A DNA stretch of 64,000 bases, taken from sequence record PQ671644.1. The stretch is one strand, 5' to 3'. Under the pieces are notes generated by a model. That model was given only the letters and a program-made list of their open reading frames with translations. It was not told the DNA's origin and made no database searches. How positions within the stretch are numbered: position 1 is the stretch's first letter; the number at the start of each line of letters is the position of its first letter. Both the position numbers and the translations under genes were made by a program. Origin of the DNA: Escherichia phage DCP80. Below, piece by piece: positions 20,286 to 60,514 of this stretch.

Positions 20286-20300
20286 NNNNNNNNNNNNNNN
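20286..20300. other. N-run (scaffold junction)
   Basis: 15 n; gp47 N-terminus is replaced by an unrelated holin fragment after the gap. Confidence 0.95.
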
Positions 20301-20383
20301 TTCCCGGTCGCATTATCTTTAAAAATTCTATCAAGAAGTCCAAAAAGTAGGTCTGATAATGAAAATCCTACTTTTGGTTCCAT
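20301..20383 (-). CDS. t: holin t, N-terminal 27 codons (truncated by N-run)
   Basis: MEPKVGFSLSDLLFGLLDRIFKDNATG matches T4 holin N-terminus (..SFSPSDILFGVLDRLFKDNATG); AAGGAG RBS. Confidence 0.75.
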
Positions 20384-20402
20384 ACTTTTCTCCTTTAAAG
20401 AT

Positions 20403-20410
20403 ATTTATAA
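20403..20410 (-). promoter_or_regulatory. late promoter TATAAATA for gene t
   Basis: Exact TATAAATA on the minus strand 20 nt upstream of the t ATG. Confidence 0.6.
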
Positions 20411-20419
20411 TATGGGGTA

Positions 20420-21220
20420 TTATACTCTGCTTCCGTATATCGTACCAACGTTTTGCCAGTTAGGAGCATTACCGGCGACTGCTGCCCCAGCATTACCACC
20501 AGCACCAACTTTAAGCACTTTACCTCCATCATTCCAAGCGTTTTGGCCTTTAGCACCGACATTCCCACCAGCACCTGAATGCGCGTTACCATAATTATAA
20601 CCACCACCTGCTCCGGTAAGAGATGCCGCCCCACCGGAGTATCCTCCGCCACCAGCTGCACCAAATGGTCTACCGCCGCCAGCGCCTATATCTTGCCAGT
20701 TAGCACCTGAATGGGGTCTATACGCGATGCCACCACCACCGCCACCACCACCGGCTATAGCGCCATTATTACGGATACGAAGTTTAGTTCCGGCATTGTT
20801 TTGTATGGCTATTCCGCCGGCCTCACCATTACCATTGCCGTCGCTATGGGTCCAGCCTCCTCGGCCTCCTCGACCATAAACGGTAACACCGCTATTAATA
20901 TTAAGTTGTATATAAGCATTAGGTAAGTTGCTAGGGAATTCCAGACATGGGTTTCCGCGGTTGTTAGATACCAAGTCACCAGTAATTGTAATAACAACAG
21001 GCGCACTGCCTTGTGCTCTCATCCAGTTTATAAGGGTGTTTTTATCATAGTTATGATTAGCCCCTATAGATAAGTAAATTTCTTTTGATTGGTTAGCCAT
21101 CGAACCCATCCAACCCGGGACAGCTACACGAACATCTCGCATTGCTGCATCCATCCAACGTTGGCCAGTTTCGTCAACTGCAGATTGTCCGACCCAACCA
21201 GGTAATCCTACAATTGCCAT
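20420..21220 (-). CDS. 38: gp38 tail-fiber adhesin, T2/T6 type (glycine-rich motifs)
   Basis: 266 aa; conserved N-terminal attachment domain (VG.PGW.G.SAV.ETGQRWM) and C-terminal polyglycine stretches (GGGGGGGG) separating variable segments, as in T2-type gp38 adhesins. Confidence 0.8.
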   Translation of the reverse strand: MAIVGLPGWVGQSAVDETGQRWMDAAMRDVRVAVPGWMGSMANQSKEIYLSIGANHNYDKNTLINWMRAQGSAPVVITITGDLVSNNRGNPCLEFPSNLPNAYIQLNINSGVTVYGRGGRGGWTHSDGNGNGEAGGIAIQNNAGTKLRIRNNGAIAGGGGGGGGIAYRPHSGANWQDIGAGGGRPFGAAGGGGYSGGAASLTGAGGGYNYGNAHSGAGGNVGAKGQNAWNDGGKVLKVGAGGNAGAAVAGNAPNWQNVGTIYGSRV

Positions 21221-21251
21221 AATAAATCCTTAGGGCCCGAAGGCCCTTTTC

Positions 21252-24200
21252 TTAATTTAATTTAGCTTCAAGTTCTCTAACTTTAGCCGACAGGGTTTTA
21301 ACTGCTTCAATTAACAGAGCAACTTGTGCCTGAGTCGAAACTGTCAGAACCATATTTTCCTGCGAATCTAAAGACTCATGCACCGCTTCAGGTAATACTT
21401 CTTTAAGATTCTGAGCAATAACACCTGCTTCAGTTTGAACCGCTTCACCACCGATATATTCAGCTTTATCATAGATTAAACCGTCGAGCTGTTCAACCTT
21501 TTCAAGAGCATTTTCAATAGGCCTGAAGTTTGATTTCAAACGAATGTCAGAACGAATATAAACGTTTGGAGCATTTATATTTTTATATGAGTACAAATCA
21601 CCGTTTTGGAAACGGAAAGTCTGTACGCCATTCGCATATATGTCTAATAATCCATCGCCATTTTGCTTAATACCGGTATCACTATCGCCAATTGTTATAC
21701 TACTTCCACCGAGTGAGTTAGTTGTATTAACACCAAAGGCACTTGTTTGTGGCATCTGTACTTTACCCGGGCAATCTAAAATGCCATCCATTGTAAATCG
21801 CCATCTTGCTTGTTGGCCGTTAGCGTTATCTCCGCGAATACGAATAATACCTTCTCGCCAACCAGCTGTGGTACCAGAGCCGACCCATCCAAATTCAAAG
21901 GTTTGACGATATCCAGAGGAACCATAGTTGCTGTATGCACCTACAATAGGATAATAACTACCTGAATTAGATAAATCACCATGGTCTGCCATAAAGGTGA
22001 TTTTAGATTTCATTGTATCTGAGGTATCTCCCCAACCAGAGGCACCGCGCCAACCTGCAACCACACGAGACGAGATATTGCCTAAACTAGTATTACCACT
22101 GGTGACATTAAGGCCGCCCGCCACGTTCAGACCACCACCAGTAATATTCAGACCACTGCCCATGCCTACACGACCATCAGCCATGTTGATAGAGAAAGGT
22201 CTTAAGCCATTCCACAACCCGTCAGTTGCATTCGGGTTTTCTTCCGTGTTTTTATCCGTAACTAAAATATGAAAATTTTCACCGTCGTTTCTAATCAAAG
22301 CGGCATTAGAACCTATATCATTACCGCTGGATTTGATACGCATACCTTTTTGGTTATTGGTAACGTATTCACCACGTGTAACAATATCCGATTCGCCGGC
22401 AGCAAACATTCCGTCAATGTTGTTCAGCATTCTTACAGATTTACCTACAACATGACCTTCAGGTAATGTTTCTACCAAAGGCTGGACACCGCTATTAATA
22501 CCCACTACGGTTACTTTACTATTGCTACTGCATGTATATTCTACCGCCAAAGAATTAGAATACCCACCTAAGTAAACGTAAATATCATAGGTATCTTCGC
22601 TTGTATTAACAGAAGCAATCTGAGAAATAGCTTCAGAAGTTCTATTCCACAGCGTAGCATTAAGGCCTTTAGGGTTATTATTGCCGGTTCTAAGGACTAT
22701 TTCGGCTATTGAAGCCTGACCATAACTTTTAAAATTAAATCCAGAACCACCTGATATTTTAAAGGATGCTGTACCCGTCGCTTGTGGAATTTCTACAGTA
22801 GCAAATTTATACCAACCTGTAGTAGCGCCGCCAGCCCAACCGCCTGTGTTAACTTTACGGTCTAACGTTGTGTTCAGGTTTTTAAAGTTATCTAATGCAG
22901 TGCTGCCTGTAATATTACCGTCAGGACCAATACGAACATCGGAACCAATTTTAAGTGCCTTGGTTATATCAACAGTATCAGAGTTTAATGCAATACCATG
23001 GGAGTATGTATAGTTATGTAAACGAACAACGTTGCCGCCGTCGCCAATACCGAGATACCATTTTGTAACATCTGCTTTACGTCCTTGGATAAAGTTGGAT
23101 GATGCCTGGGATGAAGCATTTACCACAATGGCATCAGAATCCATATTAACACGCAGTCTACAGTCGGTCTGGACAAATTTACTTACGTTGTCTACTGTAA
23201 AAAGTGGACCATACCCGGCACTTTTATTCCCCATTATAACCGTGCCGGTGGCTAAATTGATAGATAGCGGACGAAGGTCACTTATTCCACCATTTTCTCC
23301 AGCGTTCTGAAGAGTAGGAATAAGATGGAATGAAGCAGAAGAACCTGTTTCTGAACGACGGAAAATCATACCATATTCGGCATTCCAAATTCTTAATGCA
23401 TCAGCGGTACCGCCTATTTTAACTTGACCGTTAAAAGTGGCGCCACCATTTATATTCAATCCGTTTGCTGAAGTGATACTACCTTCCGATGAAATACTAC
23501 CAGCAGTAGTCAATCCACCATTTACACGGAATTGAATAGAACCTACGGTTTGGGAACTTGTGGGAGCAACGCGTTGTGAATAAAAATGCCAACCCTGTCC
23601 ATCGCCTAATTCAAATACAGTTTCTCTGCTTTTATTAGTGTCATCCTCAAATGCGTTACCCCATACTTTCATGGTCACATAGCTTTTGTTCTGACCCGGG
23701 CGGGTGCCTGCGTTCCAAACAATCGTTTTTGTGCCATTGATAGTGGAAGAAGCGCCGAACTTTATACCTTTATTGTTGTTGTTAGTATTAAAAAATAATT
23801 CGTTATCTAATTTAACTGGTTGGGTCGAGGAAACTGTGCCATCGGCTCTAAGATTCAGTTCATTAACCCCGGTTTTAATATTCAAAATACCTGGTTCAAT
23901 AATCATGCCTTCTGCCATAGAAATGGCTACACGACCTGTACCACGGAAATAATGATAAAGTTTACCATTAGAATTATAACCTAAATGGGTTTGGCCATCC
24001 CCAGAGTTATTACCGTCTATTTCGGTTCTAATAGAAACCATAGAAGAGTTCTGGCCAGGCAGAAGCCAAGTAAGACCTTGGTCATTACTACGGCCAAATA
24101 TGGTTTTACTAGTCCCACGGAAGCCGTCGGAAGTAATAGATGCAACGGAATAACCTCCACCAACTAAATCATAAACACCTTGCTTAATATATTTCAGACC

Positions 24201-25004
24201 GGTTACAGTGTCACCGAGAACAAGATACTTATCGCCCATTACACCGACGTTACCATAATCACTAGACGGGAAACCCGTAGTGAATGTACCTAATGCAAGG
24301 CTATTACGGCCTGCCATTCGTCCGTCATTACGAATGCCATATTGTTTAGATGATGGAGTATTACCTGTCCACCATGACATTTCATCAGCTTGACCTGTCT
24401 GGGCGGTGCAAAGCTCATGCCACATAGTGCCACCAGACTTGGCGCGAACTTTACGAAGATAGTTTACACCATTCGTTTCGCCTGTGCCTGGGTATACATA
24501 ATTAACTAATGAATCTGTATCATATACACCAAAGGCTTTGCCACCGTGGATAACTGTATCGACTGCAATGCGTTTAGTTACTAATGAATCTGATGCTAAA
24601 ATACGGTTGGCCTGAAATTCACCACCATTTATAGAACGGAAATAGAATTCACTATTAGCAGTACCTTCTGTCCCCTGTTTAATCCTAATGCGTAATTCAC
24701 CAGCATTTGTAGTTTGAGGACGTGCATATATAACACCGCGTTCACTGCCATCAGCATTTTCAAACCATAAATGGGCATTTGATGTTGTATCGTTTGAAGC
24801 TCTTGAATAAAACGAGCCTTGCAACGCTCTAAAAGTTTGAGCCGAAATACTAGTGCCTGCTGTAATCGACCCGCTTGTAGAAAAGTTTCCAAAATTGTTT
24901 AATGGGCCGTTAATGCGTAAAGTTCCATTAATAGTTACATCCCCGTCAACCTGCCCACCTTTAGCAAAGCCCAAATCAATAATCTGTCCCTGGTCTGACT
25001 TAGT
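21252..25004 (-). CDS. 37: long tail fiber distal subunit gp37, T2-type with C-terminal intramolecular chaperone domain; N-terminal ~40 aa lost in N-run
   Basis: N-terminal region near-identical to T4 gp37 ([24 protein letters not shown]); C-terminus ...[19 protein letters not shown]...[15 protein letters not shown]... resembles self-cleaving intramolecular chaperone domains of tail fibres. Confidence 0.85.
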
Positions 25005-25040: not shown

Positions 25041-25056
25041 GCGGAAAGGGGGTGTT

Positions 25057-25224
25057 ATGAAAACATTCAAAGATTTTATCAACGAAGATATGGTTGCAGG
25101 TGATGCAGGTGGAAACCCAACTAATATCACAACAGGTACCACTTCCGGGGCAGTTGTCAATAAAGGCCCTGAACAAATCCCATCAAAAAAGCGTAAGAAC
25201 AAAGACGATAAACCTACAGTATAA
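25057..25224 (+). CDS. hypothetical protein (55 aa)
   Basis: ATG at 25057; short ORF upstream of primase followed by a UUCG hairpin at 25228-25241. Confidence 0.4.
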   Translation: MKTFKDFINEDMVAGDAGGNPTNITTGTTSGAVVNKGPEQIPSKKRKNKDDKPTV

Positions 25225-25256
25225 TGGTCCTTCGGGGCCATTGAAATGAGGAAACT

Positions 25257-26285: not shown

Positions 26286-26393
26286 GAAGGGATTCCGGTA
26301 AAGTAACCGATGATGGAATGAATATGTTCTATTGTGACCTGGGGTAAGTGCACCCCTTGTGTTGCAGCGATAGGCACAACCAGTAAGTTCCAC

Positions 26394-26591
26394 CTATATA
26401 AGGCCGATTAATGCTAGTGAAACATCTACAACTGATTCGAGCGCGACGACTGGCAATATAACACCATGTGCCAATGCAATAGGGGCAACAATGAAATTCC
26501 AGAGTAGAACAAAACAGAGTATCGAAAGGACCAGAATCGTTCGCTTACGACTGCCTTTGATGGCTTGAATTAGACTAGATAGTTTGAGCAT
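26394..26591 (-). CDS. small membrane protein (65 aa), convergent to gene 61
   Basis: AAGGAGG RBS; hydrophobic segments predicted; conserved in duplicate at 59152..59349. Confidence 0.45.
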   Translation of the reverse strand: MLKLSSLIQAIKGSRKRTILVLSILCFVLLWNFIVAPIALAHGVILPVVALESVVDVSLALIGLI

Positions 26592-26613
26592 ACATCCTCC
26601 TTTCTTGTATTTA

Positions 26614-26637
26614 TGCTTTAAACCAATATGATATAAT
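26614..26637 (+). promoter_or_regulatory. middle promoter (MotA box TGCTTTA + -10 TATAAT) for gene 56
   Basis: ATGCTTTA then 11 nt then TATAAT upstream of the gene 56 RBS. Confidence 0.5.
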
Positions 26638-26675
26638 TAACATACAAACAATATGAATTGATAAGGAAAAATATA

Positions 26676-27475: not shown

Positions 27476-27516
27476 GTTATAAATACACCTGTAATTAAAC
27501 AACAAAGGAGTTTATT

Positions 27517-27750: not shown

Positions 27751-27754
27751 TTAT

Positions 27755-27780
27755 AGGGAACCTTCGGGTTCCCTTTTTTG
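27755..27780 (+). terminator. rho-independent terminator after soc
   Basis: GGGAACC-UUCG-GGUUCCC hairpin followed by UUUUUU. Confidence 0.65.
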
Positions 27781-27827
27781 CTTTTAATAGAGATGGTATA
27801 ATTATTTCAACTACAGAGGAGAATACT

Positions 27828-37899: not shown

Positions 37900-37940
37900 N
37901 NNNNNNNNNNNNNNNNNNNNNNNNNNNNNNNNNNNNNNNN
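37900..37940. other. N-run (scaffold junction)
   Basis: 41 n. Confidence 0.95.
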
Positions 37941-38023
37941 TTCCCGGTCGCATTATCTTTAAAAATTCTATCAAGAAGTCCAAAAAGTAGGTCTGATAAT
38001 GAAAATCCTACTTTTGGTTCCAT
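37941..38023 (-). CDS. t: holin t, N-terminal 27 codons (second copy, truncated by N-run)
   Basis: Identical to 20301..20383. Confidence 0.75.
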
Positions 38024-38042
38024 ACTTTTCTCCTTTAAAGAT

Positions 38043-38050
38043 ATTTATAA
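38043..38050 (-). promoter_or_regulatory. late promoter TATAAATA for gene t
   Basis: Identical to 20403..20410. Confidence 0.6.
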
Positions 38051-38063
38051 TGCTTTTGCGCTA

Positions 38064-38615
38064 CTATTTTTTAAACCATCTTTTGAAGAATGATTTTTTC
38101 TCTTTTTCTGGCCAAGCCGGGAATTCACCACCGAGGTGTTCGTGTTTTTCTAAAAGAGCAAAGAAACGTTTAAGATTCTGGTGATAGAATTTTTCTTTCT
38201 TATCGGCGACTGAGGCTTCAACCATATTACTTAATACCTGGAATTCTTTATACAAATCGTCAATTTTTCGATTGCGAATCATTACTCGTTTATATGTTTC
38301 ATCTTCTTTCCAGCCATCATCTGTCCATATATCAAACTCGCCAGGTTTATCGAAAGTTATACCGACTGGGCTTCCTATGTCATTTATTAAGATTTCTTCT
38401 TTATTAAAAGTCCATGCACGTTTGCCTCGATGGTCTTCTTCATAAATCCAATCTTGAATGCGTTCGTCAAATACAACGGCATACCCTTCTTTAGGTTCTA
38501 AAGGTTTTTTAGCTGTTGAATGGGCCGGAAGGCCAAGGCCTTTAATGGGTTTATAATTTTCTTCTTTGTAGAATTCTTTTGTGTCAAAATAAAAATGATA
38601 AATTTTCATATTCAA
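38064..38615 (-). CDS. 38: gp38, T4 type (tail-fiber assembly chaperone, not a virion adhesin)
   Basis: 183 aa (as T4 gp38); near-identical to T4 gp38 (KIYH.YFDTKEFYKEENYKP.KGLGLPAHST.KKPLEPKEGYAVVFDER.QDWIYEEDHRGKRAWTFNKEEI). Confidence 0.9.
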   Translation of the reverse strand: MNMKIYHFYFDTKEFYKEENYKPIKGLGLPAHSTAKKPLEPKEGYAVVFDERIQDWIYEEDHRGKRAWTFNKEEILINDIGSPVGITFDKPGEFDIWTDDGWKEDETYKRVMIRNRKIDDLYKEFQVLSNMVEASVADKKEKFYHQNLKRFFALLEKHEHLGGEFPAWPEKEKKSFFKRWFKK

Positions 38616-38636: not shown

Positions 38637-41600
38637 TTATGCTAAACGAACGATATAGTTAAAAGCAATGTTTTTAACCGTGTTTTCTGTATTACCTGTA
38701 CTATTTACGGTAATGGTATGCCCATGTGAACCAATCGCTACAGTATGAGTGTGAGCACCGATACCTACCGTATGCGTGTGAGCACCAATACCTACAGTAT
38801 GAGCGTGGTTACCTGTGGCACTTGTGGTCCCTGACCAACTATGAGTATGAGCACCGTCTGAAGAAGTTTTGGCTATATTCGACCCTGCAGTAGCACCGCT
38901 CACGGTTCCAGTGATTTTAGCGTTGGCGTTTGCACCTACACTATTATATCCGTCATAGAATATGTTATTGGGTACGCCGGCTTGCATCTGAGGGCCTGAA
39001 CGCGCGTGTTGGTGTGCTCCGGCTGAACTGGTAGTACCACTCACTGTATGGTTATGGTTACCGGTGGTATTACTGGTCTTAGTACCATAATCAAAGCTTG
39101 AAGATGTTTTAGTGCCATAATCAAAGCTTGATGTGGTTTTAGTACCCAAGTCAGTACTCGAAGCAGATGCGCCATGGTTATGAGACTTAATACCATCAGC
39201 TTCTGCACTCAACACTGCGCGGCCACTTGGTTTACCCTTGATAGTTTGTCCACGCATATCAGGAATAGTACCAGAAGGATATGCAACAGCAAGCTTAGGA
39301 TAAGCACCTGTATCAAAGGTCTGACCTTCCATCAAAGCATAACCATTAGGAGGAGTATCCGTTGGCCATGGAATTGGGGCTCCAATAGGATAACTTGAAA
39401 CAATATCAGTTTTAAGTGATTCAATTGTACTGTTTAAGTTAGCAAAGTTACCAGAGCCACCGGTGATATTACCATCAGTTCCTAAAGTTGTGTTGCCTAC
39501 AATAATTTTACCAGGTAAGCGGAAGTCACCGGTGCGGCGGAATTCCCAACTTAAATCAGTTCCGGTAGTACTATTGCCCTGGTGATAATGAACGCGGAAG
39601 TCTCCTTGAGAAATTAAGGTGCCAATAGAATAAGTGCTATCACCATTTACATACCGTTGTTTAACAATAGGAATGTATTCAGAAGTAGCAGTACGCTCTA
39701 TATTCATATAAATTGGAGCCCTGACATCTGCGTAATTCTGAGATGCAAACGAACCAGCTCCTGCTGGGCGTACCGTATCAGTACATTCGGCCTCAATATA
39801 TGTCGACTGCCCCAATTTCATTCTAAAATTGGCATTAATGCGAGAGTTACTGTTTATCGTAGTTAAAGCATTATTTTGATCTACTATAAAAGAATCTCTT
39901 CCTAATCCAACCATACCATCGTTTAATCCTATTCTCACAGGTCTCAAAGAGCTGTGAATGTCTCCACTTTCGCCTTCATTTTGATTGGTTGGAAGAATAT
40001 AAAAGTTACTTTCTGAACGACGGAAAATAGCGCCATATTCAGCATTCCAAATTCTTAATGCATCTGCTGTTCCACCAATTTTTACTTGTCCGGTAATAGA
40101 AGAACCACCTTGGACAAACAAACCGTTAGACATAGTAACATTGCCACCAAAAGAACCTGTACCGGAGGCACTTATATTTCCAAGGCCTATGATATGGTCT
40201 GTTTCAACAGCTCCGTTAAATTTAAAGTTAACTGGACCTACTGTTTGACCTGACGCAGGATTAGTACGTTGAGCGTAGAAATAATAACCTTGTGAATCTG
40301 AAACTTCGAATACAGTTTCTCTATTACCGCCACCTGTATTAAATGAATTACCCCACGCTTTAATAGATATATAGTTTTTATTCTGTCCTGCGCGAGTACC
40401 AGCGCCCCACAGTATAGTTTTAGTGCCATCTAATGATGTAGGTGCATCAAGTTGAATACCGTCAGCTCTAGCCCCGGTAAGAAGTACCCCGTTATCAAAT
40501 TTAATTCTTTGAATAGAAGAAATAGTGCCGTCAGCATAAAGCTGTACATTATTAGCGCCGGTTACCAGTTTAAGAATACCTGGGTTAAGTTCCATGCCTT
40601 CTTGGGTGTTAATATTGGTTTGACCTCTACCGCGGAAATAGTGCGACATTTTTCCGCCAGAGTTATAACCAATATGCGTCTGACCATCGCCAGCTGTATT
40701 CCCGTCAGCCTGAGTTTGAGCTGATAAAAATGCAGCATTGGTTCCAGGCATAATCCATGTGGTGCCTTGGTCTTCTGAACGACCAAATAAACCTTTACGA
40801 GTACTACGGAAACTATCTGGAGTAATAGAAGCAACTGAATTCCCTGAACCAACTAAATCATAAACACCGGTTTTTTTGTATGACAGCCCCGTCCCGTTAT
40901 CGCCTAGAGCTAAATAAACACCGAATCCTAAAGCGGCACCATTACCATAGTCGCTTGACGGGTATCCTTCAGTCACAGTACCAATGGCCAAGCTATTGCG
41001 AACAATCATTCTGCCGTCATTACGAATACCATATAGTTTATATGTTGGTGTATTACCAGACCACCAAGAAACCTCATCAGCTTGGCCTAATTGGGCCGTA
41101 CAAATTTCATGATACATTGTACCACCAGACTTGGCGCGAACTTTACGAAGATAGTTTACACCATTCGTTTCGCCTGTGCCTGGGTATGTATATTTAACTA
41201 ATGAATCAGTGTCATATACACCAAATGCTTTGGCATCGTGAATAACTGTATCAGCTGCAATGCGTTTTGTTAATAACGCATCCGAAGCTAAAATACGGTT
41301 AGCCTGAAATTCACCGCCGTTTATAGAACGGAAATAGAATTCACTATTAGCAGTGCCTTCTGTCCCCTGTTTAAGCCTAATGCGTAATTCACCAGCATTT
41401 GTAGTTTGAGGGCGAGTATATATAACACCACGTTCAGTGCCATCGGCATTTTCAAACCAAAGGTGGGCATTTGACGTATCGTTTGTTGCTCTTGAATAAA
41501 ACGAACCCTGTAATGCTCTAAAAGTTTGAGCCGAAATACTCGTGCCTGCTGTAATCGACCCGCTTGTGGAAAAGTTTCCAAAATTGTTTAATGGGCCATT

Positions 41601-41810
41601 AATGCGTAAAGTTCCAGTAATAGTTACATCGCCATCAACTTGTCCACCTTTTGCAAAGCCCAAATCAATAATCTGTCCCTGGTCGGACTTGGTAAAAATA
41701 GTGCGGTCACGCAAGTTAATAGCCAGTTCGCCTTCATCTAACTGAGCTGCAGTAGGCTTGGCTCCTGGTGTTTTACTTCTTTTAAATTGTATCGATTTTA
41801 AAGTAGCCAT
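38637..41810 (-). CDS. 37: long tail fiber distal subunit gp37, T4 type (His-x-His C-terminal tip)
   Basis: 1057 aa; matches T4 gp37 from MATLK.IQFKRSK to the [48 protein letters not shown]-terminus. Confidence 0.95.
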
Positions 41811-41818: not shown

Positions 41819-42023
41819 TTAATAATATCCAAAATCTTCAGATGTACCTCTAAGAACAACCTGGTCAATACGAGGAACGTGTTCGTTCAATGTTCCTGGG
41901 TTCCTAGATATGAAATTCGGGGCTGAAAGAACACCAGCCATAGATTGTATGTTACTATTATTTATTTGGACCTGTTTTGCGTTATCCACATCACTTAATC
42001 CAACTTGTGCTTTTGTCGGGGTA
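41819..42023 (-). CDS. 36: tail fiber protein gp36, C-terminal fragment
   Basis: Stop-free frame from the N-run to a stop 8 nt upstream of the gene 37 start; assignment by position. Confidence 0.6.
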
Positions 42024-50000: not shown

Positions 50001-50119
50001 GACTATAAATTATGGAATCTTTCCGTTCTTTCTTACTGAAGTATTCTGGGTTAACAAAAGGCCAAAGACCTTAGAACCATTATACACAGTAAAAATAAAA
50101 GCGTTAAAGGCAAAAAGTA

Positions 50120-50148
50120 GTGTACATAAAAGATGAATAGTATATAAT
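50120..50148 (+). promoter_or_regulatory. T4-type early promoter (second copy of 9037..9065)
   Basis: GTGTAC-17nt-TATAAT then GATTCCGTACTGAGTT leader. Confidence 0.5.
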
Positions 50149-50195
50149 GATTCCGTACTGAGTTATTCAATCGTCCGTAAGATGAGAAAAATATC

Positions 50196-50942
50196 ATGAC
50201 TTTATCAAAAACCAAAACGCTGAAAGTTAAACGTCGTCTGGAACACACTCAAGCTTCCGCTAAACGTCGCGGTAAGGACTTTAACCTGGATTTTGATTAT
50301 CTGGTTAACATTCTTGACCAAAAAGTTTGTGCTTATTCTGGTGAGACATTTAATAACTCTATTGAAGGTGAGAAGTTATCATTAGAGCGTTTTAACAATG
50401 ATATTGGTTATATCAAGGGTAATGTTATTCCTGTTAAAAAGAAATACAATACCATGCGTTCTGATTGGACCCTGGATGAGCTTAAACAACGCCGTGATGA
50501 TGTTGCTGTAAAAATTGCTCGCCCTTCTGCCAAGAAGATTGATAAGTTAAATCTGACTGCAGAGAAATGGGAACAGATTAAAAAGTCATATACTCATATC
50601 AAGAACATCCAGCATAAACGTGATAATCGCGTTAAGCATTATGCTCAAATGAGTAAATCAGAGCAGTCCAAAGAAAACCAATTAAAAATGGTTGCTCTGA
50701 AGGCTCGCATTGATGGTTCCCGTGTTGCGGAAGGTCATGAGCTTACTAAATTGAACGTTTTGCTCAAAGGCAATGACTGGAAAGTTACCAAGAAATTAAC
50801 TGATGCTGAAACGCTTTTTGATTGCTATGATAAAATCATTCAAGGTCTTGAGCGTTTTGAGAAGATTGGTTTTATTGGTAAATTAAAACTGAAACGTGGT
50901 CTGCCTTTGAACGCGTCAATTTTTAAACTGATTAGAGGTTAA
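50196..50942 (+). CDS. hypothetical protein (248 aa) at the srd position, diverged copy
   Basis: About 55% identical to 8247..8990 with identical last ~25 aa; flanks near-identical. Confidence 0.55.
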   Translation: MTLSKTKTLKVKRRLEHTQASAKRRGKDFNLDFDYLVNILDQKVCAYSGETFNNSIEGEKLSLERFNNDIGYIKGNVIPVKKKYNTMRSDWTLDELKQRRDDVAVKIARPSAKKIDKLNLTAEKWEQIKKSYTHIKNIQHKRDNRVKHYAQMSKSEQSKENQLKMVALKARIDGSRVAEGHELTKLNVLLKGNDWKVTKKLTDAETLFDCYDKIIQGLERFEKIGFIGKLKLKRGLPLNASIFKLIRG

Positions 50943-50943
50943 T

Positions 50944-51243
50944 GTGATGTACTACGCATATGTGCTAGTCTACAAAGATAAAGATGGTTTTGAACATCCA
51001 TTGGAGTATGATGGAAAGGTGACCTTATACACCACAAAAGTGGGCGCAGAATATGAACTTGCCAACTATTCATATACTACAAAACGCTATTTAAGTATGG
51101 GACGTATTGAAACACGGTATATTCCCAGAAAATGGTGGTTTGATAAGCGTGAAACAAAAACAGTTTTTCCTACTGAAGAACGTGCCCGCGAACTGAAATT
51201 AATTTTAGATACTTTATATGTTAAGCGAGTAAAATTGGCATGA
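50944..51243 (+). CDS. hypothetical protein (99 aa; dda.1 position), second copy
   Basis: 93% identical to 7946..8245. Confidence 0.5.
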   Translation: MMYYAYVLVYKDKDGFEHPLEYDGKVTLYTTKVGAEYELANYSYTTKRYLSMGRIETRYIPRKWWFDKRETKTVFPTEERARELKLILDTLYVKRVKLA

Positions 51244-52568
51244 TTAAATTTGAAGACTTGAACACAGGACAAAAAGAAGCTTTTGATTATATCACTGAAG
51301 CTATTCAGCGACGTTCGGGGGAATGTATCACTCTGAATGGCCCAGCTGGCACAGGTAAGACCACTCTGACAAAATTTGTCATTGACCACTTAGTGCGTAA
51401 TGGAGTTATGGGAATTGTGCTTGCTGCACCAACTCACCAGGCGAAAAAAGTTTTATCTAAATTGTCTGGTCAAACGGCGAATACAATCCATAGTATTCTG
51501 AAGATTAACCCGACCACATATGAAGACCAAAACGTTTTTGAACAGCGCGAAATGCCTGACATGTCAAAATGCAATGTTCTGGTTTGTGATGAAGCAAGTA
51601 TGTATGACGGGGCTCTGTTTAAGATTATTCTTAACTCTGTTCCTGAATGGTGTACTATTCTTGGGATTGGTGATATGCACCAGCTGCAACCAGTTGACCC
51701 AGGAAGTACACAACAAAAGATAAGCCCATTCTTTACGCATCCTAAGTTCAAACAGATTCATCTGACTGAGGTCATGCGAAGCAATGCTCCTATCATTGAA
51801 GTGGCGACAGAAATTCGTAATGGTGGCTGGTTCCGTGACTGTATGTATGATGGTCATGGTGTGCAGGGTTTTACCTCACAAACCGCTTTAAAGGATTTCA
51901 TGATAAACTATTTCGGTATTGTAAAAGATGCTGATATGTTGATGGAAAACCGGATGTATGCGTACACGAATAAATCAGTTGAAAAACTGAACAATATCAT
52001 TCGCCGTAAGCTCTATGAAACAGATAAAGCATTTTTACCGTATGAAGTCCTGGTTATGCAAGAGCCACACATGAAAGAGCTGGAATTTGAAGGCAAGAAA
52101 TTCAGCGAAACCATTTTTAATAATGGTCAGTTGGTTCGCATCAAGGATTGCAAATACACTTCCACAATTCTCCGTTGTAAAGGCGAATCGCACCAGTTGG
52201 TGATTAATTACTGGGACCTGGAAGTTGAGTCAATTGATGAAGATGAAGAATATCAGGTTGACCGCATCAAAGTTTTACCAGAAGACCAGCAACCAAAATT
52301 CCAGGCATACCTGGCTAAAGTTGCTGACACATACAAACAGATGAAAGCCGCTGGTAAACGTCCAGAGTGGAAAGACTTCTGGAAAGCTCGCCGGACCTTC
52401 TTGAAAGTTCGTGCTCTTCCGGTCAGTACAATCCATAAGGCACAGGGTGTTTCAGTGGACAAAGCATTCATCTATACTCCATGCATCCATATGGCCGAAG
52501 CTTCATTAGCGAGCCAGTTGGCTTATGTAGGAATCACACGAGCGAGGTACGACGCATATTATGTATAA
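51240..52568 (+). CDS. dda: Dda DNA helicase, second copy
   Basis: Differs from 6621..7949 by a single residue (V to I). Confidence 0.92.
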   Translation: MIKFEDLNTGQKEAFDYITEAIQRRSGECITLNGPAGTGKTTLTKFVIDHLVRNGVMGIVLAAPTHQAKKVLSKLSGQTANTIHSILKINPTTYEDQNVFEQREMPDMSKCNVLVCDEASMYDGALFKIILNSVPEWCTILGIGDMHQLQPVDPGSTQQKISPFFTHPKFKQIHLTEVMRSNAPIIEVATEIRNGGWFRDCMYDGHGVQGFTSQTALKDFMINYFGIVKDADMLMENRMYAYTNKSVEKLNNIIRRKLYETDKAFLPYEVLVMQEPHMKELEFEGKKFSETIFNNGQLVRIKDCKYTSTILRCKGESHQLVINYWDLEVESIDEDEEYQVDRIKVLPEDQQPKFQAYLAKVADTYKQMKAAGKRPEWKDFWKARRTFLKVRALPVSTIHKAQGVSVDKAFIYTPCIHMAEASLASQLAYVGITRARYDAYYV

Positions 52569-52800
52569 GGTACATAAAGAAGATTTAGATAATCTCATCT
52601 ATGGTATTCAGGACGCGGTTGAATTTTTCGAAGATAATCCGACTATCGTCGTGCAGGGTAATTACGTTTTACTGGAACTGAATCTTATTCGGAAACGTAT
52701 GGCCGCGATTGAATATTTTAACAATGAAGAGCCAGGGATTTTTATCTCCGACTATGTTGCTGGTGAAATTCAGAAATTAAAAGAGATGTGCGATGATTGA
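52561..52800 (+). CDS. hypothetical protein (79 aa), second copy
   Basis: Matches 6389..6628. Confidence 0.5.
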   Translation: MYKVHKEDLDNLIYGIQDAVEFFEDNPTIVVQGNYVLLELNLIRKRMAAIEYFNNEEPGIFISDYVAGEIQKLKEMCDD

Positions 52801-53476
52801 TGCTATTATTGACTTTGAAACTCTGGGAAACGGCTCGAAGGGAGCCGTTATTGACCTGGCCCTGATTACATTCGAATCTGACCCTGCTATTGTGGAATCG
52901 TTCGAAACCCTGGTTAATCGCGGCAAACGCATTAAGTTCAGCCTTGAATATCAAAAAGGTAAGCGGCTGTTCGACACAACAACTATGGGTTGGTGGAAAA
53001 AGCAATCAGCCGAAGCACGTGTTAACCTGGTCCCTTCTGCGCAAGATGTTGATACTCTGACTGGTATCCAACAAGCAATTGACTATCTGAATGACAATGG
53101 AATTAACAAATACGAAAGCCTTATGTGGTGCCGTGGAATGTCTTTTGACTTCCCGTTGTTTGTCGACCTTATCCGCGACCTGCAGCGCAATGAGGGGATT
53201 CCTGAGCGCGAATTGAATACCTATAACCTGGAGCCGGTTGTATTCTGGAACCAGCGAGATATCAGAACAGCAATCGAAGCCCTGTCACTCGTCCGTAAAA
53301 TGTGTGAAACTCCATTACCAAAGGGGACTTTAGATGGATTCGTGGCGCACGATTCGGTACATGACTGTGCGAAAGATATTTTGATGCTTAAGTACGCCCA
53401 GCGCTATGCCCTTGGTTTAGATGAAGTTCCTTCCGAAGAAGATGCAGACCCATTATCTTTGCCGAAAAAACGATAA
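52793..53476 (+). CDS. dexA: exonuclease A (DexA), second copy
   Basis: 227 aa, a few substitutions relative to 5713..6396. Confidence 0.75.
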   Translation: MIDAIIDFETLGNGSKGAVIDLALITFESDPAIVESFETLVNRGKRIKFSLEYQKGKRLFDTTTMGWWKKQSAEARVNLVPSAQDVDTLTGIQQAIDYLNDNGINKYESLMWCRGMSFDFPLFVDLIRDLQRNEGIPERELNTYNLEPVVFWNQRDIRTAIEALSLVRKMCETPLPKGTLDGFVAHDSVHDCAKDILMLKYAQRYALGLDEVPSEEDADPLSLPKKR

Positions 53477-53482
53477 AAAGTA

Positions 53483-53512
53483 GTGTACAAGGCCAATGGA
53501 AAGAGACATAAT
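53483..53512 (+). promoter_or_regulatory. T4-type early promoter (second copy of 5677..5706)
   Basis: GTGTAC-18nt-CATAAT then CATCAACTACTGATGAGGA. Confidence 0.5.
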
Positions 53513-53543
53513 CATCTCATCAACTACTGATGAGGACAACAAA

Positions 53544-53696
53544 ATGATTACTTCTTTTGAAATTGGCCAACAATATGAAATGTCCGCTCTTCAAGCTGCT
53601 GAAGCAGGTCTGACTAAAGCGTTTGAATGTGCATTTGCAAATATTCGTGGTAAAATCTTTACTGTCAATAAAATTGCGGTATATGATAAAGAAACA
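53544..53696 (+). CDS. hypothetical protein, N-terminal fragment (copy of 5388..5645)
   Basis: ATG 53544 after GAGGA RBS; truncated by N-run. Confidence 0.45.
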
Positions 53697-57140: not shown

Positions 57141-57170
57141 CTTTTGCCTGACGTTCAGCTTCTTCTTGTG

Positions 57171-57365
57171 TCATGATTTATCTCCGTAGATATCACGCAT
57201 CAGTTTAAGCACAGCTCGTTCGGTCTTCTTTTCCTGCATATCTTTGACGCTGGCGGCGGCCCATTCTTCAGCTTCGCGCTGCATTTCTTCCTCGGCTCTG
57301 GCTACCCAGGAATCATCAATCCCTGGAGTAACCAACCAATCTTTAAGCCAACTTGTAATTCTCAT
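57171..57365 (-). CDS. hypothetical protein (64 aa), copy of 28382..28576
   Basis: Identical translation. Confidence 0.45.
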   Translation of the reverse strand: MRITSWLKDWLVTPGIDDSWVARAEEEMQREAEEWAAASVKDMQEKKTERAVLKLMRDIYGDKS

Positions 57366-57722
57366 TTAATCACACGAGCTGGAAGACGAATCGCAGCTTC
57401 CTGAATCATAGGAGGAATAAGACGAATCACCAGTCCACGAACTGACGGCAGCAGCGACTACAATCGGAGTCATATCAATATGCGGTGTAGTATCGACATG
57501 GCTTGTAGAACGTCTTGAATCCAGATGCTCTTTTAACTTTTTCGAATTCAATGGCAATGCACCTGGTCCGACATTACCGGCTTTTTCTGGTCGGCGACGA
57601 ACTTCTTCCATCATACCATCGCCCATGTAAACATATTCTCTTAGCTTGACATCTGGTAGGCTAACAGGAACCACGCCCTCGTTTGGTTTGGTCTTGAATA
57701 AATTCTTGAGCCAACTAATCAT
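57366..57722 (-). CDS. hypothetical protein (118 aa), copy of 28022..28381
   Basis: Near-identical translation (a few substitutions). Confidence 0.5.
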   Translation of the reverse strand: MISWLKNLFKTKPNEGVVPVSLPDVKLREYVYMGDGMMEEVRRRPEKAGNVGPGALPLNSKKLKEHLDSRRSTSHVDTTPHIDMTPIVVAAAVSSWTGDSSYSSYDSGSCDSSSSSCD

Positions 57723-57916
57723 AGGAAACCTCGTTTAAATTCAACTTGACCATCATCATAACGGATTTCAATATTGAATTCTAAAGAATCATCATCGTGC
57801 ATCATGAACGAGTGCACGACAACCTCATCAAACACACCCAGACCATACTTAAAATGTACATCATGGGCAATAACTTCGTCTAAAGTTTTGTTCGGTTTAA
57901 TCCAACGGTTTAACAT
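57719..57916 (-). CDS. hypothetical protein (65 aa), copy of 27828..28025
   Basis: Identical translation. Confidence 0.45.
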   Translation of the reverse strand: MLNRWIKPNKTLDEVIAHDVHFKYGLGVFDEVVVHSFMMHDDDSLEFNIEIRYDDGQVEFKRGFL

Positions 57917-57964
57917 AGTATTCTCCTCTGTAGTTGAGATAATTATACCATCTCTATTAAAAGC

Positions 57965-57987
57965 AAAAAGGGAACCCGAAGGTTCCC
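57965..57987 (-). terminator. rho-independent terminator after soc (second copy)
   Basis: GGGAACC-UUCG-GGUUCCC with U-run on the minus strand. Confidence 0.65.
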
Positions 57988-57992
57988 TATAA

Positions 57993-58226
57993 TTAAACTA
58001 CTGGGGTAGGCGTAAACATCGCCGCGTTCTTAGTTCGCCAATCGGCTGCATCAGTCACTACAGTAGTATAGGCTGCAACGGCCGAAGGGAAAGTCTGATA
58101 ATGAGCATCCGCAATACGGTGCTCGTTTGAATAGATTTCAAACGGAACAGATACTTCAACACCTTTAACTTCTTTACCTTCACCAGCTGGATGCGTAAAG
58201 GTTTTGATATTAACGAAACCACCCAT
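57993..58226 (-). CDS. soc: small outer capsid protein Soc, second copy
   Basis: Identical translation to 27517..27750. Confidence 0.8.
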   Translation of the reverse strand: MGGFVNIKTFTHPAGEGKEVKGVEVSVPFEIYSNEHRIADAHYQTFPSAVAAYTTVVTDAADWRTKNAAMFTPTPVV

Positions 58227-58267
58227 AATAAACTCCTTTGTTGTTTAATTACAGGTGTATTTATAAC

Positions 58268-58549
58268 TTACAATTTGGCGGCTTGGACTGCTTTATTGGC
58301 TTCAGTCATTTTAGCTAGATTTTCAGCAGTAGGATTGGCAATGTATTCGGCTGTAGCTTTAGCAAAAACATTATGAGTTTCGATTACATTTTTAGCATTT
58401 TCAATATTCATATCAATTTCTTGTTTAGATAAATTTTTTAGTTGATTGGCTAAGAGTTCTACAAAGATTTCAACATTAGCGTTTTCAATTATATCATTAA
58501 TATGCTTCTTACGAGCTTTCTTAAGCTGACGTTTATTTAAACGAGGCAT
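58268..58549 (-). CDS. hypothetical protein (93 aa), copy of 27194..27475
   Basis: Near-identical translation. Confidence 0.5.
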   Translation of the reverse strand: MPRLNKRQLKKARKKHINDIIENANVEIFVELLANQLKNLSKQEIDMNIENAKNVIETHNVFAKATAEYIANPTAENLAKMTEANKAVQAAKL

Positions 58550-59067
58550 TAATAACCTCGGTCCTGACGAGCAAAGTTCTCGGCATTTTTCAGGTAATAC
58601 AGTTTAAAGATTTCTTCTGCTGTCAGACCAAGACCATGGAACATGTTCAGAACGAAATGGAGAATATCAATCATTTCGAATTTAATTTCGAGCTGGTCTT
58701 CAGGAGAGAGTTCGTCAATACGACGGTTACGGAATTCGCCATGTTGAGCTTTCCAAGGCTTCCAACAACTTGATGCAGCTTTCTCGCCATTAGACATACC
58801 ACCGAGAGAAGTCAGAAGTTCACGGAATTCGTCGTCAACATAATCTTTCTGGTTGCGAAGCCATGCAACAACATCGCCTGCGGTTGCCAATTCATCTGGA
58901 TGTGCGTTATATTCTGGTTTTTCTGTAGCCAGACGAACCTGCAAAGATTTCTGCATATCAAGCATAATCTGCAGAGGGTCATCATTGCCTTTTAGGACAT
59001 CATTATACGCATCTTGCGCTTTATCAACACCAGCAATCAGTTGAGAACACTCGTTAAAATGAGCCAT
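58549..59067 (-). CDS. 56: dCTP pyrophosphatase gp56, second copy
   Basis: Near-identical to 26676..27194 (a few substitutions). Confidence 0.92.
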   Translation of the reverse strand: MAHFNECSQLIAGVDKAQDAYNDVLKGNDDPLQIMLDMQKSLQVRLATEKPEYNAHPDELATAGDVVAWLRNQKDYVDDEFRELLTSLGGMSNGEKAASSCWKPWKAQHGEFRNRRIDELSPEDQLEIKFEMIDILHFVLNMFHGLGLTAEEIFKLYYLKNAENFARQDRGY

Positions 59068-59105
59068 TATATTTTTCCTTATCAATTCATGTTGTTTGTA
59101 TGTTA

Positions 59106-59129
59106 ATTATATCATATTGGTTTAAAGCA
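59106..59129 (-). promoter_or_regulatory. middle promoter (MotA box + TATAAT) for gene 56, second copy
   Basis: Reverse complement of 26614..26637. Confidence 0.5.
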
Positions 59130-59151
59130 TAAATACAAGAAAGGAGGATGT

Positions 59152-59349
59152 ATGCTCAAACTATCTAGTCTAATTCAAGCCATCAAAGGCAGTCGTAAGC
59201 GAACGATTCTGGTCCTTTCGATACTCTGTTTTGTTCTACTCTGGAATTTCATTGTTGTCCCTATTGCATTGGCACATGGTGTTATATTGCCAGTCGTCGC
59301 GCTCGAATCAGTTGTAGATGTTTCACTAGCATTAATCGGCCTTATATAG
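59152..59349 (+). CDS. small membrane protein (65 aa), second copy
   Basis: One substitution relative to 26394..26591. Confidence 0.45.
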   Translation: MLKLSSLIQAIKGSRKRTILVLSILCFVLLWNFIVVPIALAHGVILPVVALESVVDVSLALIGLI

Positions 59350-59457
59350 GTGGAACTTACTGGTTGTGCCTATCGCTGCAACACAAGGGGTGCACTTACC
59401 CCAGGTCACAATGGAACATATTCATTCCATCATCGGTTACTTTACCGGAATCCCTTC

Positions 59458-60486
59458 CTAAACTTTTGCGTACTTCGAAAGTCGCATTCTCGCCATCAAT
59501 CCTTGAGCAACGTTATCGGCCATATATGATTCGATTTGTTCAGGGGTTGCCCCTTCTGATTTAACCATCTCATTTATGTCTTTCGTATGCCATGGTGCAT
59601 TGTCCCAGAACATAACAGCTTCGCCCGCTTCAACGAGCTTCTTCATACGTTTAATCGTATCTTTATGTCGCGGTTCATGGTCCATCACCCATACTCTGGT
59701 TTCTGGATAAGGAACAGCTTCCAATGCCAATGTGCCACCGGTTATCGCAATGCTGTTAGGGATAAACAAACTATCAATTGGACCTTCCATTACCCATACG
59801 CGTTTACGCTCATCAATCTTGTCTACGCCATAGACTTTGGAAGCTTCTGGGTGAGCTTTGATTGTGATATATTTTTGTGGTGCATCTTTGCGAAGAGCTC
59901 GTCCTTGGAAAGATTCGATTTCTTTTTTGCCGTTGAAGATAGGAATAACCAAGCGTGGTTCATTCGTTTCATTCTTATACGTCCCAGGATTGACGGAGTT
60001 AACTAATGCAGGCCATTTGTTTGTAAACCATAACCGGTTCCAAACATTGCTAGGAATACACCGACTTTTTACATACTTAATTATCGGATGTGCTTCTGGT
60101 AAAGTATCGAGTCTTTCACAAAAAGCAAGCTGCTCGATAACCGGAGTTTTTTCTGGTTCTTTCGGAGTTTCTGCAACTTCATTGCGCTGTCTGCCAAAGG
60201 CATTCTCCTTATACTTCTCAACCATATATTCCCGGTGTAAATCCGGCTCAAACTCTTTTATGTATTTGCTTATATGCGTGGAGTAGTCACAGTTAAAACA
60301 TTTCACGTAAACCGCGCCATCAGACGGATTGGTATACGCCCAGAATCGAGCTTTATGTGAATCTTTCTGGGAGTCGCCACAAACTTTACATCTGCAGTTT
60401 GCCTTAAATGTGCTCCCGGTGACTTCTCTATAACGTGGTTGATACGATAAAGCTCTGACTGCAAATTCTTTATCAATATATGACAT
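59458..60486 (-). CDS. 61: DNA primase gp61, second copy
   Basis: About 97% identical to 25257..26285. Confidence 0.93.
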   Translation of the reverse strand: MSYIDKEFAVRALSYQPRYREVTGSTFKANCRCKVCGDSQKDSHKARFWAYTNPSDGAVYVKCFNCDYSTHISKYIKEFEPDLHREYMVEKYKENAFGRQRNEVAETPKEPEKTPVIEQLAFCERLDTLPEAHPIIKYVKSRCIPSNVWNRLWFTNKWPALVNSVNPGTYKNETNEPRLVIPIFNGKKEIESFQGRALRKDAPQKYITIKAHPEASKVYGVDKIDERKRVWVMEGPIDSLFIPNSIAITGGTLALEAVPYPETRVWVMDHEPRHKDTIKRMKKLVEAGEAVMFWDNAPWHTKDINEMVKSEGATPEQIESYMADNVAQGLMARMRLSKYAKV

Positions 60487-60514
60487 AGTTTCCTCATTTC
60501 AATGGCCCCGAAGG

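What the first reader, a model, noticed from the sequence alone, without database searches (positions are those of the whole stretch)
20301..20410. Identical 110-bp holin-start and late-promoter segment follows both tail-fiber cassettes
20301..20410 and 37941..38050 are identical: TATAAATA late promoter, AAGGAG RBS and the first 27 codons of holin t. In both places the segment is cut by an N-run. This is the conserved 3' flank of the fiber cassettes and a likely recombination anchor; it also shows the N-runs do not reflect true gap sizes.
Basis: seen in the sequence. Interest (0 to 1): 0.45.

Follow-up and report, generated by a model that had tools for sequence, protein, structure and literature searches.

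The report
Assembler overlap at holin gene start
The identical 111-base stretch is the real start of a phage lysis (holin) gene with its late promoter, but it appears twice and stops where it does only because an assembler split two co-sequenced, closely related T4-like phages at this point, so it is ordinary.

Summary
20301-20411 and 37941-38051 are identical over 111 bp, one more than reported. On the minus strand the segment reads TATAAATA late promoter, AAGGAG, ATG and 27 codons of holin t. It is 100% identical to the t start of Gaprivervirus phages SP18, P896 and CJ20.

The window is not one genome. It is a length-sorted list of at least 15 separate contigs, padded with N, that map to scattered places and orientations of SP18. 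Two related strains (about 95-97% identical) were co-assembled.

The decisive result concerns contig ends. Every contig end that matches another contig does so for exactly 111 bp, and the match stops at the first variant base. This holds for six ends in three contig pairs. So 111 is the assembler's k-mer overlap at graph branch points, not a biological unit.

Only the inner boundary is biological. It lies 8-12 nt after the gene 38 stop, where a T2-type fibre cassette (gp37 plus gp38 adhesin) and a T4-type cassette (needle-tipped gp37 plus gp38 chaperone) join the shared t gene. Public genomes show the same module boundary at the same nucleotide, with one locus per genome.

This is known biology plus an assembly artefact, and interest is low.

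The parts
20301..20411 (-). Copy 1 of the 111-bp shared block. It is the terminal k-mer overlap of contig 20301-25004 and holds the late promoter, RBS and first 27 codons of holin t.
   Evidence: Exact identity to 37941-38051. 100% identical to the t start of SP18, P896 and CJ20.
37941..38051 (-). Copy 2 of the 111-bp shared block. It is the terminal k-mer overlap of contig 37941-42023.
20402..20409 (-). T4-type late promoter core TATAAATA. The second copy is at 38042-38049.
   Evidence: 16 matches in the window against 4.85 expected, and no shuffle reached 16. The motif ends 18 nt before the ATG.
20390..20395 (-). Shine-Dalgarno AAGGAG, 6 nt upstream of the ATG at 20383. The second copy is at 38030-38035.
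   Evidence: Read directly from the sequence.
20301..20383 (-). 5' fragment of holin gene t (27 codons plus 2 nt), cut by the contig end. The second copy is at 37941-38023.
   Evidence: The annotated t CDS of SP18 starts at the same ATG. The Pfam Phage_holin_T match is weak (E = 0.0049, below cutoff) because only 27 aa are present.
20420..21220 (-). Gene 38, T2/T6-type glycine-rich tail-fibre adhesin (266 aa).
   Evidence: Pfam GP38 PF05268 E = 3.6e-67 and Gp38_N E = 5.8e-16. 70% identical to the CJ20 adhesin.
21252..25004 (-). Gene 37 (N-terminus missing at the contig end), T2-type with a C-terminal Peptidase_S74 intramolecular chaperone domain.
38064..38615 (-). Gene 38, T4-type tail-fibre assembly chaperone (181-183 aa).
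   Evidence: 89% identical to SP18 gp38, annotated 'tail fiber assembly'. The DNA hit overlaps T4 gene 38.
38637..41810 (-). Gene 37, T4-type (1057 aa) with a collar domain and a His-rich HxH repeat at the C-terminal tip.
41819..42023 (-). 3' fragment of gene 36, cut by the contig end.
   Evidence: 98% identical to the SP18 gp36 region.
20286..20300 (.). N padding between two unrelated contigs. The left contig maps to the gp44-gp47 region of SP18 (28007-33196) and ends inside gene 47. The right contig maps to SP18 160890.
37900..37940 (.). N padding between two unrelated contigs. The left contig maps to the head-gene region of SP18 (gp67 to the start of gp24), ending at 106285.
50001..53696 (.). 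Control case: an allelic contig whose two ends each overlap contig 4521-9759 by exactly 111 bp and then hit the first variant.
57141..60514 (.). Control case: an allelic contig whose two ends each overlap contig 25041-29505 by exactly 111 bp and then hit the first SNP.

Best explanation
The window is a concatenation of length-sorted contigs from a de Bruijn-graph assembly with an effective overlap of 111 nt. The sample contained at least two closely related Gaprivervirus (SP18-like, T4-superfamily) phages.

Both phages carry the same sequence at the start of holin gene t: a gp55-type late promoter TATAAATA, AAGGAG, ATG and the N-terminal cytoplasmic segment of holin T. Upstream of it they carry different distal long-tail-fibre cassettes. 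One is T2-type (gp37 with an S74 chaperone domain plus a gp38 adhesin). The other is T4-type (gp37 with a His-box needle tip plus a gp38 assembly chaperone).

In the assembly graph the shared t sequence is a single path that forks where the two genomes first differ, 8-12 nt after the gene 38 stop. Each cassette contig therefore ends with the last shared 111-mer. That produces two identical 111-bp copies, each 'cut' by the N padding that follows a contig end.

Shown here: the exact identity, the annotation, the contig structure, the two-strain mixture, the uniform 111-nt overlaps, and the same module boundary in public genomes. Inferred: that the identity continues further into t on an unseen contig; the assembler type and k; that TATAAATA fires as a late promoter; and that the conserved t flank serves as the right-hand homology arm when cassettes are exchanged between phages.
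For: 1. Contig structure. There are 14 N-runs of 10-58 nt, all ending at a multiple of 20. Segment lengths fall strictly from 5239 to 3362 once the N-free join at 33740/33741 is recognised. Neighbouring segments map to distant places and opposite orientations of SP18 at 92-99% identity.
2. Two genomes. 50001-53696 is 95.5% identical to part of 4521-9759. 57141-60514 is 96.6% identical to part of 25041-29505. These loci are single-copy in every listed public relative.
3. Uniform overlap. All six contig ends that match another contig do so for exactly 111 nt, and the next base is the first SNP, indel or divergence.
4. No further piece of t is in the window.
5. The 111-mer occurs once per genome in all 85 public phage records that hold it.
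6. It is 100% identical in SP18 and P896 (T4-type cassette) and in CJ20 (T2-type cassette). Homology between cassette types resumes at exactly the first base of this block.
7. The cassette types are confirmed by Pfam and by protein comparison.
Against: Neither reads nor the assembly graph are available, so k = 111 and the shared downstream contig are inferred. Internal exact matches longer than 111 nt (up to 269 nt) exist between the allelic contigs. The assembler must therefore have resolved paths through some shared nodes, as read- or pair-guided path extension does, so the contigs are not raw unitigs. The other ends of the two cassette contigs (25004 and 42023) have no partner in the window. 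111 is not a default final k of the common assemblers, as far as I know.
Confidence: 0.9

Rival explanations
1. There is one phage genome that truly carries two distal tail-fibre cassettes. Each is followed by a copy of the t promoter and start, as a segmental duplication that gives dual host range, and the assembler broke at this genuine intragenomic repeat.
For: A repeat within one genome gives the same graph topology and the same k-length terminal overlaps. Both contigs contain a gene 37 N-terminal region that is about 90% identical, not fully identical.
Against: All 85 public records with this block have it exactly once. The window also holds pairs of 95-97% identical allelic contigs for unrelated single-copy core regions: dexA-dda-srd-modA, and modA.2-to-gp61 including soc and gp56. 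That requires two genomes anyway. A second, truncated holin start would have no known function.
Confidence: 0.05
2. The 111-bp block is a discrete biological recombination element: a conserved late promoter plus gene start that acts as a defined crossover site, analogous to PeSL motifs. On this view its length reflects selection.
For: Cassette types switch at exactly the first base of the block in independent public genomes. Short conserved promoter-containing motifs are proposed to mediate module shuffling in T4-like phages (PMC4122927). Tail-fibre adhesin swapping by recombination between conserved motifs is documented (PMC3157838, citing Tetart 1998).
Against: The outer end of the block is a contig end, and its length equals the overlap seen at four unrelated contig ends. 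In public genomes the exact identity runs on for 198-213 nt and about 95-100% identity continues through the whole t gene and beyond, so no 111-bp unit exists. The 8-12 nt between the gene 38 stop and the block leave no room for a stem-loop of the kind PeSLs contain.
Confidence: 0.04
3. The identity is a data-handling artefact: the same sequence was pasted twice, or a masking step created both copies, so at least one copy is not real sequence of that contig.
For: The window was clearly processed: N pads end on a 20-nt grid, and one join has no N at all.
Against: Both copies continue seamlessly into a correct gene 38 3' end and intergenic spacer. These match public genomes of the corresponding cassette type: P896 and SP18 for the T4 type, CJ20 and IME341 for the T2 type. 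The same 111-nt rule holds at other contig ends in different sequence.
Confidence: 0.01

Closest known systems
k-mer-length terminal overlaps between contigs of a de Bruijn-graph assembly of mixed strains (bubble or branch contigs)
   Same: The overlaps are exact and of one fixed length (111 nt) at six independent contig ends. Each stops at the first variant base. The contigs are sorted by length, and allelic contigs are 95-97% identical.
   Different: 111 is not, to my knowledge, a default final k of the common assemblers. Some shared stretches longer than 111 nt lie inside contigs, which implies path resolution beyond raw unitigs. Assembler identity cannot be checked.
Gene 38 - gene t junction of Gaprivervirus phages (Shigella phage SP18, Escherichia phages P896 and CJ20)
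   Same: The block is 100% identical over all 111 nt, in the same order 37-38-t, with the same ATG for t. Both cassette types occur in this genus in front of the identical block.
   Different: The window's cassettes are not identical to any public one. The T2-type contig is at best 89-92% identical over 76-82% of its length. The T4-type contig is 96.8% identical to phage 04086.
T4 holin T with its late promoter (T4 gene t; Pfam PF11031)
   Same: It sits directly downstream of gene 38, with a TATAAATA late-promoter core, a short leader with a strong SD, and an N-terminal segment resembling holin T.
   Different: Only 27 of about 217 codons are present at each site. The transmembrane and periplasmic domains lie off the contigs, and the Pfam score is below the gathering cutoff for that reason.
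Alternative distal long-tail-fibre modules of T-even phages: T2/T6-type gp38 adhesin versus T4-type gp37 tip plus gp38 chaperone (Trojet et al. 2011, PMC3157838; Tetart et al. 1998 as cited there)
   Same: One contig has a PF05268 gp38 adhesin after a gp37 ending in an S74 chaperone domain. The other has a gp37 with a His-rich C-terminal tip followed by a T4-like gp38 chaperone.
   Different: Nothing differs in kind. Here the two forms come from two strains in one sample, which the assembly brings side by side.
PeSL promoter-terminator motifs proposed to mediate module shuffling in T4-like phages (Comeau et al. 2014, PMC4122927)
   Same: A conserved promoter-containing sequence sits exactly at a module boundary.
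   Different: PeSLs are early-promoter plus stem-loop composites in hyperplastic regions. This is a late promoter with no stem-loop, followed by a conserved coding sequence. The dispersed early-promoter-like motif seen elsewhere in the window is the better PeSL candidate.

Membership tests
De Bruijn-graph contig overlap (assembly artefact) | Terminal overlaps between contigs all have one fixed length | tested here: met
   All six matching contig ends overlap by exactly 111 nt.
De Bruijn-graph contig overlap (assembly artefact) | The overlap ends exactly at the first difference between the two sequences (the branch vertex) | tested here: met
   Base 112 is a SNP, a 1-nt indel or the start of unrelated sequence in every case.
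De Bruijn-graph contig overlap (assembly artefact) | The pieces are independent contigs, not a scaffold in genome order | tested here: met
   Lengths fall strictly. Neighbours map to distant SP18 positions and to both orientations. One join has no N.
De Bruijn-graph contig overlap (assembly artefact) | The assembly graph or reads show both contigs entering one shared node, whose coverage is the sum of the two | not testable with these tools
   The source assembly was not found in genome, viral or metagenome contig collections. No reads are available.
Holin T (T4 gene t, PF11031) | Sequence match to the family | tested here: inconclusive
   The 27-aa fragment scores 16.7 bits, E = 0.0049, below the cutoff of 22.2. 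The DNA is 100% identical to the first 83 nt of annotated t genes.
Holin T (T4 gene t, PF11031) | Position directly downstream of gene 38, on the same strand | tested here: met
Holin T (T4 gene t, PF11031) | Full-length protein of about 217 aa with one transmembrane segment and a large periplasmic domain | not testable with these tools
   The gene is cut by the contig end after codon 27. The rest is absent from the window.
T4-type late promoter | TATAAATA core at about -10, a short distance upstream of a late gene | tested here: met
   An exact TATAAATA ends 18 nt before the ATG. The motif is about 3-fold enriched in the window.
T4-type late promoter | gp55/gp33/gp45-dependent transcription start | not testable with these tools
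   This needs transcript mapping.
T2/T6-type distal fibre cassette | A gp38 adhesin with glycine-rich motifs (PF05268) follows gp37 | tested here: met
   E = 3.6e-67.
T4-type distal fibre cassette | gp37 carries its own C-terminal receptor-binding tip, and gene 38 encodes a chaperone of about 180 aa | tested here: met
   gp37 has a collar domain and HxH repeats. gp38 is 89% identical to the SP18 assembly protein, and the DNA hit overlaps T4 gene 38.
PeSL-type recombination motif | Early promoter plus stem-loop composite | tested here: not met
   The promoter is a late one. Only 8-12 nt lie between the gene 38 stop and the block, so there is no stem-loop.
Homology arm for cassette exchange (recombination anchor) | Conserved flank at the same boundary in independent genomes that carry different cassettes | tested here: met
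   Homology between CJ20 and SP18 is absent across the 3' two-thirds of gene 37 and all of gene 38 (one weak 67% patch only) and resumes at the first base of the block at 97.8%.
Homology arm for cassette exchange (recombination anchor) | Demonstrated crossovers within the flank | not tested
   This would need a recombinant breakpoint analysis across many genomes, or phage crosses.

The most novel reading that the evidence does not exclude
The two strains in the sample could be recent recombinant siblings. They would share a nearly common Gaprivervirus backbone and have exchanged a whole T2-type versus T4-type distal fibre module in situ, with the right-hand crossover in or just beyond the t promoter and gene start. 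That would give a natural snapshot of host-range cassette swapping within one community.
Probability: 0.12. Interest if true: 0.3.

Novelty: already known. Interest (0 to 1): 0.08.

Why it matters
The main value is as a caution. The window is not a contiguous genome, and the repeat says nothing about duplicated loci, gap sizes or a 110-bp element. Anyone reading synteny, repeats or 'two fibre cassettes' from this record would be misled unless they treat each N-bounded piece as a separate contig, and also split the N-free join at 33740/33741. They must also recognise a mixture of at least two strains.

Biologically, the finding only re-illustrates a known point. T-even relatives swap distal tail-fibre and adhesin modules between conserved flanks, here the gene 37 N-terminal region on one side and the t promoter and gene on the other. 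The sample evidently held two SP18-like phages with different receptor-binding modules, which is of modest interest for host-range or phage-cocktail work.

Tried and rejected
- I searched for the source assembly and for the contig carrying the rest of t, using an exact 60-mer. There were no hits in genome contigs or metagenome contigs. Viral contigs returned only IME281 and IME341. No public phage record matches either cassette contig at 100%.
- I looked in the window for the rest of t, asiA and motA. None is present.
- I expected no internal exact match of 111 nt or more between allelic contigs if the contigs were raw unitigs. Matches up to 269 nt exist. A strict 'unitig' model is therefore rejected in favour of path-resolved contigs whose unresolved ends keep the k overlap.
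- I considered that the Ns might mask real bases, making the overlap 126-127 nt. I rejected this because the other four overlaps are exactly 111 nt and are bounded by real mismatches.
- I considered a single genome with two cassettes. I rejected this because of the allelic contigs in single-copy core regions and the one-locus-per-genome pattern in 85 public records.
- The Pfam scan of the T4-type gp38 found no family. Its identity was established by comparison with SP18 gp38 and by the T4 DNA hit.

Full report
**1. The observation**

Reading both sites shows the same sequence directly after an N-run. A base-by-base comparison gives an exact run of 111 nt, 20301-20411 = 37941-38051, after which the sequences are unrelated. 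The repeat finder reports 126 nt only because it counts Ns against Ns.

On the minus strand the block reads ATTATAAATATCTTTAAAGGAGAAAAGT-ATG followed by 27 codons, MEPKVGFSLSDLLFGLLDRIFKDNATG. TATAAATA occurs 16 times in the window against 4.85 expected, and no shuffle reached 16. That fits a T4-type phage that uses late promoters.

**2. What the window is**

There are 14 N-runs of 10-58 nt, and every one ends at a multiple of 20. The N-bounded pieces are 5239, 5230, 5205, 4704 and 4465 nt, then one of 8359 nt, then 4083, 4050, 3812, 3696, 3384, 3374 and 3362 nt.

I mapped all pieces onto the complete genome of Shigella phage SP18 (Gaprivervirus), fetched. Every piece is SP18-like at 92-99% identity. 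Neighbouring pieces come from distant positions and from either orientation.

The 8359-nt piece is really two contigs of 4200 and 4159 nt. They map to SP18 48103-44156 and 102118-106285. They abut at 33740/33741 without any N, because 4200 is a multiple of 20. With that split the lengths fall strictly.

The window is therefore a length-sorted multi-contig draft assembly joined with padding. It is not a scaffold. The piece left of 20286-20300 maps to the gp44-gp47 region and ends inside gene 47. The piece left of 37900-37940 maps to the head-gene region (gp67 to the start of gp24). Neither is adjacent to t in any T4-like genome.

**3. Two genomes were co-assembled**

- Contig 50001-53696 is a 95.5% identical allele of part of contig 4521-9759 (the dexA-dda-srd-modA region).
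- Contig 57141-60514 is a 96.6% identical allele of part of 25041-29505 (the modA.2-to-gp61 region, including soc and gp56).
- In public relatives these regions occur once per genome.

**4. The decisive test**

For every contig end I asked for the longest terminal stretch that recurs exactly in any other contig. Only six ends have a partner, and all six give exactly 111 nt:

- the holin-side ends of the two fibre contigs;
- both ends of 50001-53696;
- both ends of 57141-60514.

Printing the junctions shows that base 112 is, in each case, the first SNP, a 1-nt indel or the start of unrelated sequence.

This is the signature of a de Bruijn-graph assembler with an effective overlap of 111 nt. A branch contig begins with the last k-mer it shares with the other path. 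So the length of the 'repeat' and its cut at the N-run are set by the assembler.

The shared sequence must continue on another contig. No further part of t, asiA or motA is in the window. The source assembly was not found in the contig collections.

One qualification applies. Exact matches up to 269 nt lie inside the allelic contigs. The contigs are therefore resolved paths rather than raw unitigs, and only unresolved ends keep the overlap.

**5. What is biological**

The inner boundary of the block is real. The two contigs carry the two classical forms of the T-even distal long-tail-fibre module.

- *Contig 20301-25004 (minus strand).* It carries gene 37 (N-terminus off the contig) ending in a Peptidase_S74 intramolecular chaperone domain. 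This is followed by a 266-aa glycine-rich gp38 adhesin (PF05268, E = 3.6e-67) that is 70% identical to the CJ20 adhesin.
- *Contig 37941-42023.* It carries the 3' end of gene 36 and a 1057-aa gene 37 with a collar domain and HxH repeats at the tip. This is followed by a gp38 of about 181 aa that is 89% identical to the SP18 assembly chaperone. The DNA hit overlaps T4 genes 36-38.

The two forms are described by Trojet et al. 2011 (PMC3157838). The identical block starts 8 nt (T2-type) or 12 nt (T4-type) after the gene 38 stop.

**6. Comparison with public genomes**

The 111-mer occurs in 85 phage records, once in each. It is 100% identical in SP18 and P896, which have T4-type cassettes, and in CJ20, which has a T2-type cassette.

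Aligning the junctions of seven sequences shows that unrelated gene 38 ends all join the conserved block at the same nucleotide, the A two bases before TATAAATA.

Between CJ20 and SP18, homology is 94% through gp35, gp36 and the first ~600 nt of gene 37. It is absent across the cassette apart from one weak 67% patch of about 500 nt. It resumes at exactly the first base of the block at 97.8% and continues for kilobases.

Exact identity among these public genomes runs 198-213 nt from the block start. No 111-nt unit exists in nature. What exists is a conserved t gene with its promoter, forming the right flank of a variable module. This is established knowledge for T-even phages (Tetart 1998 as cited in PMC3157838; Comeau 2014, PMC4122927, for promoter-associated shuffling).

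**7. Mechanism**

*Shown.* The block contains a perfect T4 late-promoter core, a strong SD and the t start codon used in annotated relatives.

*Inferred from established T4 biology.* gp55-RNA polymerase would start transcription a few bases after TATAAATA. The 27 residues would belong to the cytoplasmic N-terminal segment of holin T. The conserved t flank, together with the conserved gene 36 / gene 37 N-terminal flank (about 90% identical between the two contigs), would supply the homology for double crossovers that exchange the receptor-binding module.

The last point is plausible, but the identity reported here does not demonstrate it.

**8. Rivals**

- *One genome with two cassettes.* This has the same graph topology. 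It is contradicted by the allelic contigs in single-copy core regions and by the one-locus-per-genome pattern in 85 records.
- *A discrete 111-nt recombination element.* This is contradicted by the k-mer rule at unrelated ends and by the longer conservation in public genomes.
- *A pasting or masking artefact.* This is contradicted by the seamless, cassette-appropriate junctions.

**9. Verdict**

The 'repeat' is a 111-nt contig overlap from a mixed-strain assembly, laid over a well-known module boundary. Novelty: already known. Interest is low.

Noticed in passing
window 33740/33741: Two unrelated contigs abut with no N spacer. The left one maps to SP18 48103-44156 (the nrdC region, minus orientation). 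The right one maps to SP18 102118-106285 (gp67 to the start of gp24). The left contig is exactly 4200 nt, so the pad length was zero. Any ORF or synteny read across this point is chimeric.
   Followed up: yes
window 4521-9759 vs 50001-53696, and 25041-29505 vs 57141-60514: These are pairs of allelic contigs, 95.5% and 96.6% identical. They show that at least two SP18-like strains are mixed in the assembly. Neither allele is more than 98.4% identical to any public phage.
   Followed up: yes
window 29781-29851, ~204-286, ~9021-9074, ~11885-11951, ~50112-50165, ~37605-37675: A dispersed conserved motif of about 60-80 nt. On one strand it reads AAAAAGTAGTGTACAA...CATAATGATTCCATACTGAGTTAC. It looks like T4-type early (sigma-70) promoters and may be PeSL-like shuffling motifs (PMC4122927).
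   Followed up: partly
window 56210-56878 (+): A 222-aa ORF with an HNH-like motif (QLDHKVSI...NL...WESNRSKG) sits between gp18 and gp19, where SP18 has only a short spacer. It is probably a free-standing homing endonuclease insertion.
   Followed up: partly
window ~1275-1286: Relative to SP18, about 620 nt (SP18 148549-149169, the segG homing endonuclease) are absent between gp32 and gp59.
   Followed up: no
window 46161-49972: This contig runs from rIIB across the end and start of the SP18 record into rIIA, as expected for a circularly permuted genome. A stretch of about 150 nt (47305-47452), at the 3' end of rIIB, is only 70% identical to SP18.
   Followed up: no
window 21252-25004 (-): The T2-type gene 37 is a mosaic with no close public counterpart over its middle part. 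The best records cover 76-82% of the contig at 89-92% identity. The T4-type contig has a 96.8% match in Escherichia phage 04086.
   Followed up: partly
window 27473-27757 and neighbourhood (contig 25041-29505); also 57986-58270: The soc region aligns twice to SP18 (to soca and socb), consistent with the tandem soc duplication annotated in SP18.
   Followed up: no
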